Origin: a virus
Lineage: Duplodnaviria > Heunggongvirae > Uroviricota > Caudoviricetes
Virus record (IMG/VR): IMGVR_UViG_2690316131_000005
DNA length: 11,820 bases
Reading direction: 5' to 3' (one strand)
The notes under the pieces were generated by a model, which had not been told where the DNA came from, did not search any database, and saw nothing but the letters and a program-made list of their open reading frames with translations. Every line of letters begins with the position of its first letter. Position 1 is the first letter of the stretch. This document shows positions 10,599-11,031 of the stretch, in pieces. The translations under genes and the position numbers were made by a program.

Positions 10599-11031
10599 AT
10601 GTTTGGTATTTTTGGTAAAAAAAGCCCGCAGAGCGGCAACGGAAATTAAAAAGTTTGAAAAACGCGATCTGGCACAGGTGGTGATTAACGCCGCCTACCT
10701 GGTGGCCTATGCAGATGGTGAATGTGAGGCTTCCTAGAAAGCGAAGATCGAACAGGTACTGCGTAATCAGCCTGCGCTGTACGCGTTTACGTCAGAAATT
10801 AATGCGATTAGCGCAACCATTATCGGTCAGCTGGATACGAACTTTAAAACTGGTCGTCGTGCGGCGTTACGTGAGATCGAGGATGTGAAACACGATACGC
10901 GTGAAGCGGAAGATGTGCTGGATGTGGCGGTGGCCATTGCGGAGGCAGACGGCGAAATTGAGCCGGAAGAGCGCAAGGTGCTGGAAGAGATTGCCGGTGT
11001 TCTGGGTCTTCGTCTGGAGAATTACCTGTGA
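10599..11031 (+). pseudogene. TerB-fold (tellurite-resistance TerB-like) gene disrupted by a +1 frameshift and an in-frame amber codon
   Basis: ATG 10599 with AAGGA upstream reads MFGIFGKK then stops at 10647; removing one A from the A7 run (10617-10623) joins it to a frame with two TerB-like motifs (AAYLVAYADGECE and AVAIAEADGEIEPEERKVLEEIAGVLGL), interrupted by TAG at 10735-10737; frame ends at TGA 11029-11031. Confidence 0.55.

What the first reader, a model, noticed from the sequence alone, without database searches (positions are those of the whole stretch)
10599..11031. TerB-like gene carrying both a homopolymer frameshift and an in-frame amber codon
The reading frame is broken at an A7 run (10617-10623), where removing one A restores it, and again by TAG at 10735-10737 between two conserved TerB-like motifs. 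It may be a true pseudogene, a homopolymer sequencing error, or expression that depends on slippage and amber suppression. TerB-fold proteins recur in stress and phage-defence contexts.
Basis: seen in the sequence. Interest (0 to 1): 0.5.

Follow-up and report, generated by a model that had tools for sequence, protein, structure and literature searches.

The report
Dead prophage tciA (TerB) gene copy
This is an ordinary, inherited pseudogene: one decayed copy of a small prophage accessory gene (tciA, TerB family) in a degraded E. coli lambdoid prophage, already flagged as a pseudogene in public annotation, while intact copies sit in other prophages of the same genomes.

Summary
Both features exist as described: A7 at 10617-10623 and an in-frame TAG at 10735-10737 in a TerB-family gene. 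The gene is tciA, followed by tciB, in the slot between the Q/tRNA region and the esterase gene of a paa-carrying lambdoid prophage.

Intact homologues from E. coli phages and at least eight other genera start at the ATG, carry A6 (or AAA AAG AAA) and have Glu (GAG/GAA) where the window has TAG.

Neither lesion is a sequencing error. The 811-bp region is 100% identical in at least 21 complete genomes. The exact TAG 71-mer occurs in 186 genome records and the A7 71-mer in 554.

A7 is an older, common allele. A TTG at 10603 keeps the TerB frame open, so RefSeq calls A7-only alleles intact and marks this locus as a pseudogene with "internal stop" only.

The TAG removes an invariant Glu and 98 of 143 residues. 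I found no suppressor tRNA in the window, no homologue that conserves the TAG, and no variation in A7 length among near-identical copies. The same genomes carry an intact tciA elsewhere.

Verdict: a true pseudogene, already annotated, of low interest.

The parts
10603..11031 (+). tciA (TerB-family) pseudogene as delimited by RefSeq/PGAP: TTG start in the TerB frame, one internal stop
   Evidence: L001 6164-6592 maps to window 10603-11031, flagged pseudo, 'internal stop'. Pfam PF05099 at 53.5 bits against a 24.4-bit cut-off. phrog_632 E 1.2e-68.
10599..10601 (+). Ancestral ATG start codon of tciA, now out of frame with the TerB body
   Evidence: Intact homologues start here with MFG(I/F/M/L)F..KK.
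10586..10590 (+). Shine-Dalgarno-like AAGGA, 8 nt before the ATG and 12 nt before the TTG
   Evidence: Read from the sequence. Conserved in homologues.
10599..10649 (+). 16-codon out-of-frame ORF (MFGIFGKKSPQSGNGN*) that translation from the ancestral ATG would now produce
10617..10623 (+). A7 run: a 1-nt insertion relative to the ancestral A6 (GGT AAA AAA GCC)
   Evidence: Exact A7 71-mer in 554 genome records, against 8 for the same context with A6.
10735..10737 (+). Premature amber codon (GAG to TAG) replacing the invariant Glu of the first ADGxxxxxE TerB motif (codon 46 in ATG numbering, 45 in TTG numbering)
   Evidence: E in 82 of 84 homologues, W in 2; E46 invariant. Exact TAG 71-mer in 186 genome records.
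10885..11031 (+). Residual 48-codon in-frame ORF (GTG start) covering the C-terminal TerB motif; probably only a gene-caller artefact
   Evidence: phrog_3920, a 48-aa family of unknown function, matches residues 96-143.
11028..11195 (+). tciB (DUF3927), intact. Its GTG start overlaps the tciA stop (GTGA), and it has its own GGAG 8 nt upstream
   Evidence: Pfam PF13064 E 1.7e-16. phrog_1470. Annotated as intact WP_000216649.1. Sequence.

Best explanation
The locus is a true, vertically and horizontally inherited pseudogene of tciA. tciA is a small TerB-family accessory ('moron') gene. With tciB it occupies the slot between the Q antiterminator/tRNA cluster and the nanS-p-type esterase gene of lambdoid prophages, which from general knowledge is where Stx phages carry stx.

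Two mutations occurred in sequence. First, replication slippage lengthened an A6 run in codons 7-8 to A7 (the mechanism is inferred). This put the conserved ATG/MFGIF N-terminus out of frame. The body stayed readable from a fortuitous in-frame TTG 4 nt downstream of the ATG. That allele is common and is annotated as intact. Whether it is still expressed efficiently is not shown; a weak start codon 12 nt from the SD, competing with the ATG, suggests reduced expression (inferred).

Second, on an A7 background, a G-to-T change turned the invariant Glu codon of the first ADGxxxxxE motif into TAG. At most a 44-residue fragment can now be made (helix 1 plus the loop); five of the six predicted helices and the second motif are lost.

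The loss is tolerated because the gene is dispensable and redundant. The same genomes carry intact tciA copies in other prophages. The host prophage is decaying in other places too, and the tciA family shows many other independent lesions. tciB downstream stays intact with its own ribosome-binding site, although it loses any translational coupling to tciA (inferred).
For: - Lesions are real and derived.
- Glu is invariant at the TAG site: 82 of 84 full-length homologues; invariant E46 in a 64-sequence alignment; it aligns with the Glu of the 2JXU TerB motif.
- Not artefacts: 100% identity over 811 bp in at least 21 complete genomes. The TAG 71-mer is in 186 genome records and the A7 71-mer in 554. 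A7 does not vary among near-identical loci, whereas the upstream G-run does.
- Order of events: an A7 + GAG allele exists and is annotated as intact (L005; alignment). A7 is about three times as widespread as TAG.
- RefSeq marks this exact locus as pseudo, 'internal stop'.
- Redundancy: strains 2013C-3513, 2014C-3051, 2013C-4187, 97-3250 and E2865, which carry the TAG allele, also hold a tciA 100% identical to that of phage Evi, annotated as intact WP_000466957.1 in 2013C-3513. The median is 5 copies of the region per genome that has any.
- Decaying context: DUF1627 and fimbrial pseudogenes lie in the same prophage segment, and the middle tRNA is degenerate.
- Family-wide erosion: other frameshifts, in-frame deletions and fusions occur among homologues.
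- P1 tciA/tciB scored non-essential in a CRISPRi screen (PMC10695390).
- The structure model of the intact homologue P0007 (pLDDT 88.9) has six helices, and the TAG falls at the start of helix 2.
Against: - No expression data were available, so complete loss of product is inferred from sequence.
- Apart from the two lesions the ORF is undamaged and about 96-97% identical to intact alleles. That would also be expected if it were still used, although it is equally expected for a recent lesion.
- Two rare draft-genome proteins have Trp (TGG) at the stop position (P0001, P0004). They look like one-step restorations of the ORF from TAG, which could hint at selection for a full-length product. None occurs among 5,426 complete genomes.
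- UAG followed by A is, from general knowledge, a comparatively weak terminator context.
Confidence: 0.9

Rival explanations
1. Assembly or sequencing artefact: the extra A in the homopolymer and/or the TAG are base-calling errors in a gene that is really intact.
For: Homopolymer runs are classic error sites. A nearby G-run (10507-10516) does differ (G9/G10/G11) among otherwise identical assemblies.
Against: The A7 and TAG are identical in at least 21 complete genomes from different laboratories and platforms. The TAG 71-mer is in 186 genome records and the A7 71-mer in 554. A7 is invariant where the G-run varies. The TAG is a substitution, not a homopolymer error.
Confidence: 0.01
2. Programmed recoding: full-length TciA is still made. 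Translation either starts at TTG 10603, or starts at the ATG and is corrected by +1 ribosomal slippage or RNA-polymerase slippage on A7. The UAG is then read through or suppressed.
For: - The TTG in frame makes the A7 allele formally open, and that allele is very common (554 genome records).
- tRNA-Lys can re-pair in the +1 frame on AAA AAA A (general knowledge).
- UAG-A is a weak stop context (general knowledge).
- The downstream ORF is otherwise undamaged.
- Rare TGG alleles occur.
Against: - No homologue conserves the TAG: 0 of 84, and 0 of 15 loci from other taxa. A7 is confined to an E. coli sub-lineage, whereas programmed sites are normally conserved.
- The window holds no amber-suppressor tRNA: the anticodons are CAT, TTT and TCT.
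- A supE-type glnV (CTA) is found in 155 records, and all 40 listed are K-12 laboratory strains. That list is not exhaustive, and other suppressors were not checked.
- TAG is the authentic stop of two neighbouring genes.
- The leader shows no significant predicted structure (z = -1.87).
- Slippage on a run as short as A7 is expected to be very inefficient (general knowledge).
- Readthrough would also insert a non-Glu residue at an invariant position.
Confidence: 0.03
3. Neo-functional fragments: the lesions created useful small products. Candidates are the 16-aa ATG peptide, the 44-aa N-terminal TerB fragment and the 48-aa C-terminal ORF from GTG 10885.
For: A 48-aa PHROG family (phrog_3920) matches residues 96-143, so this ORF is repeatedly called in phage genomes. 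The TAG allele has spread to several serogroups: O26:H11, O111:H8, O111:H11 and O55:H7.
Against: The PHROG family is most simply the result of gene callers run on the same broken gene. I did not look for a ribosome-binding site at GTG 10885, so none is known. The allele's spread is explained by hitch-hiking with the prophage, which is 99.9% identical over 11.7 kb. Nothing indicates selection on the fragments.
Confidence: 0.04
4. Phase-variable (contingency) gene: the A-run switches tciA on and off by reversible slippage.
For: A6 and A7 versions of the identical 70/71-mer both exist (8 against 554 genome records). Other homopolymer indels occur in the N-terminal Lys-rich codons of the family (P0010; P0025).
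Against: The A-run length is constant among near-identical copies. The fetched A6 example is a different, mosaic allele rather than a revertant of this haplotype (L004). Seven bases is short for efficient switching (general knowledge). The TAG makes any switching irrelevant for this allele.
Confidence: 0.02

Closest known systems
tciA/tciB of lambdoid and P1-type phages (e.g. Escherichia phage JLK-2012 tciA/tciB; ECs_1959 'TciA/TerB-like protein' in O157:H7 Sakai prophage Sp10; phage Evi)
   Same: Same gene pair, same order, same 4-nt overlap and same position downstream of the phage tRNA cluster. DNA identity is 93-94% to Evi and JLK-2012. phrog_632 and phrog_1470 both match.
   Different: The window's copy has the A7 insertion and the GAG-to-TAG nonsense mutation; the phage copies are intact. 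No function has been shown experimentally for any of them. [quoted passage not shown]
TerB of the ter tellurite-resistance operon (Klebsiella TerB, PDB 2JXU; Pfam PF05099)
   Same: Pfam TerB domain above the curated threshold. Sequence match to 2JXU at E 5.7e-7 over residues 15-137, including both D-G...E motifs. All-helical model of the intact homologue.
   Different: About 20-25% identity only. The gene stands alone with tciB instead of sitting in a terZABCDE operon. The fold-search support is weak: the best Foldseek hits are 2H5N and 2OU3 at E 0.015-0.8. The copy here is truncated.
Prophage pseudogenes in STEC lambdoid prophages (general prophage decay)
   Same: A premature stop and a homopolymer indel in a dispensable multi-copy accessory gene. 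Neighbouring pseudogenes lie in the same prophage segment. RefSeq flags the locus as pseudo.
   Different: Nothing notable.

Membership tests
TerB family (Pfam PF05099) | Significant match to the family HMM above the curated gathering score | tested here: met
   53.5 bits against a 24.4-bit cut-off, E 3.7e-14, on the conceptual translation with the stop replaced by Glu. Homologues carry a precomputed PF05099 hit.
TerB family (Pfam PF05099) | Two helix-loop motifs A-D-G-x5-E (first and second half of the domain) | tested here: not met
   The second motif, ADGEIEPEE, is intact. In the first motif, ADGECEAS-, the invariant Glu codon is TAG. The DNA is therefore homologous to the family, but the encoded product cannot contain the domain.
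TerB family (Pfam PF05099) | All-helical TerB fold | tested here: inconclusive
   The AF2 model of the intact homologue P0007 has pLDDT 88.9 and six helices. The Foldseek top hits are 2H5N and 2OU3 (a COG3793 tellurite-resistance protein), but with weak E-values and TM 0.44-0.62. The sequence-level match to 2JXU is significant.
tciA-tciB phage module | TerB-like gene immediately followed by an overlapping DUF3927 gene, downstream of the phage tRNAs in the late region | tested here: met
   The GTGA overlap is at 11028-11031.
Pseudogene | ORF disrupted relative to intact orthologues at a conserved position | tested here: met
   TAG replaces an invariant Glu. A7 replaces A6.
Pseudogene | The lesion is heritable, not an assembly artefact | tested here: met
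Pseudogene | No functional product made | not testable with these tools
   Needs expression or proteomic data.
Programmed recoding site (frameshift or stop-codon readthrough) | The shift site or stop codon is conserved among homologues | tested here: not met
   TAG occurs in 0 of 84 full-length homologues and 0 of 15 loci from other taxa. A7 is absent outside an E. coli sub-lineage.
Programmed recoding site (frameshift or stop-codon readthrough) | A cognate suppressor tRNA or a stimulatory RNA element is present | tested here: not met
   The window's tRNAs are CAT, TTT and TCT. The leader fold is not significant. A supE-type allele is seen only in K-12 laboratory strains among the rows listed (this host check is incomplete).
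Phase-variable contingency locus | Tract length varies among closely related copies | tested here: not met
   A7 is invariant in near-identical genomes, while the upstream G-run varies.

The most novel reading that the evidence does not exclude
The widespread A7 allele (554 complete-genome records) might not be a defect. It could be a translational arrangement in which the ancestral ATG now makes a 16-aa peptide, while TciA is made at a low, regulated level from the overlapping TTG or by +1 slippage on AAA AAA A. The adjacent diverged tRNA-like gene, whose anticodon loop reads UUU (10261-10336), might assist. In this reading the TAG allele is either a later knock-out or is leaky.
Probability: 0.03. 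Interest if true: 0.35.

Novelty: already known. Interest (0 to 1): 0.07.

Why it matters
It matters little. The result cleans up the first-stage lead. The locus is a correctly sequenced, already annotated pseudogene of a dispensable, multi-copy prophage accessory gene, not a recoding signal or a defence-system novelty. The only modest value is for annotation. The common A7 allele is called 'intact' from a TTG start although it has lost the N-terminus that is conserved across genera. The tciA family in STEC prophages also shows many independent lesions, which is consistent with relaxed selection on redundant copies.

Tried and rejected
- I looked for TAG-to-TGG revertants of this haplotype in complete genomes and found none. 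The two Trp-containing proteins (P0001, P0004) come only from draft or rare records, so I draw no conclusion about selection.
- I folded the conserved 5' leader (10458-10610) to look for a regulatory RNA. The z-score of -1.87 is not significant, and Rfam finds nothing there.
- I scanned for a sigma-70 promoter directly upstream of tciA and found none between the tRNA terminator and the start codon.
- I scanned PADLOC for a defence-system link. The only match is sub-threshold (PDC-S48, E 0.0094, 13 bits), so the 'phage-defence' angle has no support here.
- The Foldseek search of the model against the PDB gave only weak TerB-like hits. The family assignment therefore rests on sequence.
- I did not attempt dN/dS on A7 alleles. 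They diverge too little and the prophage copies evidently recombine (mosaic L004).
- The host-wide suppressor check covered only a supE-type glnV allele, whose sequence I recalled from memory and which was validated by near-perfect hits in 5,424 genomes. supD, supF and others were not checked.

Full report
**What is in the sequence**

Positions 10617-10623 are AAAAAAA and 10735-10737 are TAG, followed by A. Reading from ATG 10599 gives MFGIFGKKSPQSGNGN and stops at 10647-10649. The +1 frame reads ...KKARRAATEIKKFEKRDLAQVVINAAYLVAYADGECEAS*KAKIEQVL...ADGEIEPEERKVLEEIAGVLGLRLENYL and ends at TGA 11029-11031, with the TAG as its only internal stop.

**What the gene is**

With the stop replaced by Glu, the translation matches Pfam TerB (PF05099) at 53.5 bits against a 24.4-bit cut-off. 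It matches PHROG 632 ('tellurite resistance', moron category) end to end at E 1.2e-68. It also matches the solved Klebsiella TerB, 2JXU, at E 5.7e-7.

The next ORF (11028-11195) is an intact DUF3927 protein, PHROG 1470 'TciB-like'. Its GTG start overlaps the TerB stop (GTGA), and it has its own GGAG 8 nt upstream. Phage records name the pair tciA/tciB (JLK-2012, PPyecE_EH1910, Sakai Sp10 ECs_1959). [quoted passage not shown]

**Genomic context**

The window matches at 99.9% over 11.7 kb in 228 complete E. coli genomes, including O26:H11, O111:H8, O111:H11 and O55:H7 strains. The gene order is ... DUF1627 (pseudo) - fimbrial gene (pseudo) - paa - sok/hokD - DUF968 - rusA - Q - tRNAs - tciA - tciB - STnc100 sRNA - SASA/nanS-p-type esterase - lysis genes. 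This is the late-region accessory slot of a lambdoid prophage. A 2026 preprint independently lists RusA, TerB and DUF1627 as the conserved neighbourhood of prophage Pas sRNAs.

**Are the two features derived lesions?**

Yes, both are.

- *Protein level.* 84 full-length homologues were aligned. 82 have Glu at the TAG position and 2 have Trp. The N-terminus is MFG(I/F/M/L)F..KK in the large majority. In a 64-sequence alignment of intact homologues, Glu46 is invariant, as is the equivalent Glu124 of the second motif.
- *DNA level, E. coli and its phages.* Four intact copies from E. coli and its phages read ATG TTT GG. ... GGT AAA AAA GCC or AAA AAG AAA ACC, with GAG at the TAG position.
- *DNA level, other taxa.* Fifteen loci from Pantoea, Franconibacter, Pseudescherichia, Dryocola, Serratia, Pectobacterium, Pseudomonas, Oceanisphaera and others all have GAG or GAA there. 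Where the run exists it is A6.

**Are they artefacts?**

No.

- The 811-bp region is 100% identical in at least 21 complete genomes from several laboratories.
- The 99.9% matches that I aligned differ only in an upstream G-run (G9/G10/G11 at 10507-10516). They do not differ in the A-run or the TAG.
- The exact 71-mer around the TAG is present in 186 genome records. The same 71-mer with GAG is in 2, and with TGG in none.
- The exact 71-mer around A7 is present in 554 genome records. The same context with A6 is in 8.

**Order and weight of the two lesions**

A7 is about three times as widespread as TAG. It also exists with GAG: strain 2022H047 (locus L005) is annotated as an intact 142-aa protein, and so are P0002, P0003 and P0005. 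That annotation is possible because TTG 10603-10605, which is part of ATG-TTT-GG read in the +1 frame, opens the TerB frame upstream of the run and gives MVFLVKKARRAA....

For the same reason PGAP labels the window's locus 'internal stop' and not 'frameshifted'. Whether the TTG is used is not known. It lies 12 nt from the AAGGA, it is a weak start codon, and it must compete with the ATG 4 nt upstream, so I infer reduced expression. The A7 allele has in any case lost the N-terminal MFGxF that is conserved across genera.

The TAG is unambiguous. It removes an invariant residue and everything after codon 45/46. In an AlphaFold model of the intact homologue P0007 (pLDDT 88.9; helices 2-36, 44-55, 58-80, 82-94, 100-115, 122-135) the stop falls at the start of helix 2. 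The fold search gave only weak TerB-like hits (2H5N, 2OU3), so the family assignment rests on sequence.

**Why the loss is tolerated**

Genomes that have the region hold a median of 5 copies. Strains carrying the TAG allele (2013C-3513, 2014C-3051, 2013C-4187, 97-3250, E2865 and others) also carry a tciA 100% identical to that of phage Evi. In 2013C-3513 this copy is annotated as intact (WP_000466957.1) behind an Ile-Arg-Arg tRNA cluster in another prophage.

The prophage segment in the window shows other decay: two more pseudogenes and a degenerate middle tRNA. The family as a whole shows further independent lesions:

- a deletion in a different A-run (P0010);
- an insertion in the A-run of codons 17-18, rescued by another alternative start (P0025, P0035);
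- in-frame deletions (P0018, P0027, P0033, P0038);
- a tciA-tciB fusion (P0012) and other truncations.

This is the pattern expected of redundant, weakly selected accessory genes.

**Recoding and the other rivals**

- *Suppressor tRNA.* None of the three tRNA-like genes in the window has a CUA anticodon; they are CAT, TTT and TCT.
- *TAG as a normal stop.* TAG terminates two neighbouring annotated genes.
- *Conservation.* No homologue conserves the TAG, and A7 is limited to an E. coli sub-lineage.
- *Leader structure.* The leader has no significant predicted structure.
- *Host suppressors.* A supE-type glnV allele occurs in 155 records, and the 40 listed are all K-12 laboratory derivatives. 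This host check is incomplete.
- *Phase variation.* The A-run does not vary among close relatives, which argues against it.
- *Defence link.* PADLOC gives no meaningful defence-system hit.
- *Trp alleles.* P0001 and P0004 are most simply rare one-step changes of the TAG. They are absent from complete genomes, so they do not support selection for restoration.

**Verdict**

This is a real, heritable pseudogene of tciA in a decaying paa-carrying lambdoid prophage, already flagged as such in RefSeq. The sequencing-error option is refuted and the recoding option has no support. Interest is low.

Noticed in passing
window 10507-10516: A G10 run in the tciA leader is hypervariable among otherwise near-identical loci: G9, G10 and G11 in genomes identical elsewhere, G8 in L005, G11 in phage Evi, and GGGGGTGAG or GGGGTGAG in other alleles. 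It could be genuine slippage or long-read homopolymer error. No promoter-like site overlaps it.
   Followed up: partly
window 10261-10336: ARAGORN calls the middle tRNA-like gene tRNA-Lys(TTT), but Rfam's tRNA model and PGAP do not call it. It aligns with argN (anticodon TCG) of other prophages. Relative to argN it has lost a base in the D-arm, has C at position 33 and an A-C mismatch in the T-stem, yet shows two compensated pairs in the anticodon stem. It is probably a decaying tRNA. The same form is present in L005.
   Followed up: partly
window 11200-11372 (+), terminator-like hairpin 11397-11415: A strong match to the prophage sRNA STnc100 (RF02076; 100.8 bits against a gathering score of 47) lies directly downstream of tciB and upstream of the esterase gene. 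A 2026 preprint relates STnc100 to the PasD sRNAs.
   Followed up: partly
window 10599-10623 and homologues (P0002, P0003, P0005, P0046; L005): The A7 allele without the TAG is present in hundreds of E. coli genomes. It is annotated as an intact 142-aa protein from a TTG start (MVFLVKK...), although it has lost the MFGxF N-terminus that is conserved across genera. Its expression status is unknown.
   Followed up: partly
homologues P0010, P0012, P0018, P0025, P0027, P0033, P0035, P0038: The tciA family carries many further independent lesions: indels in other A-runs of the Lys-rich N-terminal codons that are 'rescued' by alternative starts, in-frame deletions, and a tciA-tciB fusion.
   Followed up: no
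window about 4210-4944 and 5110-5643: Two more pseudogenes lie in the same prophage segment according to RefSeq annotation of an identical locus: a DUF1627 gene (frameshifted) and a fimbrial protein gene (frameshifted with an internal stop), just upstream of paa.
   Followed up: no
window 6751-6900 (sok RNA) and 6898-7053 (hokD): An intact hok/sok-type type I toxin-antitoxin module (Rfam sok 103.9 bits; hokD annotated) lies between paa and the DUF968 gene.
   Followed up: no
window 1-142: All of the listed top genome matches to the whole window start at base 143. As far as I can recall the IS1 sequence, bases about 100-142 look like the reverse complement of an IS1 terminal inverted repeat. 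If so, the source genome has an IS1 inserted here that the listed matching genomes lack.
   Followed up: no
window 9972-10000, 10049-10078, 10146-10174, 10440-10457: Promoter-like sites lie just after Q and just before the first tRNA. A palindromic terminator-like hairpin sits between them and another follows the last tRNA. As far as I recall the Stx-phage late-region layout (pR' - tR' - tRNAs), this arrangement fits it. All are consensus matches only.
   Followed up: no
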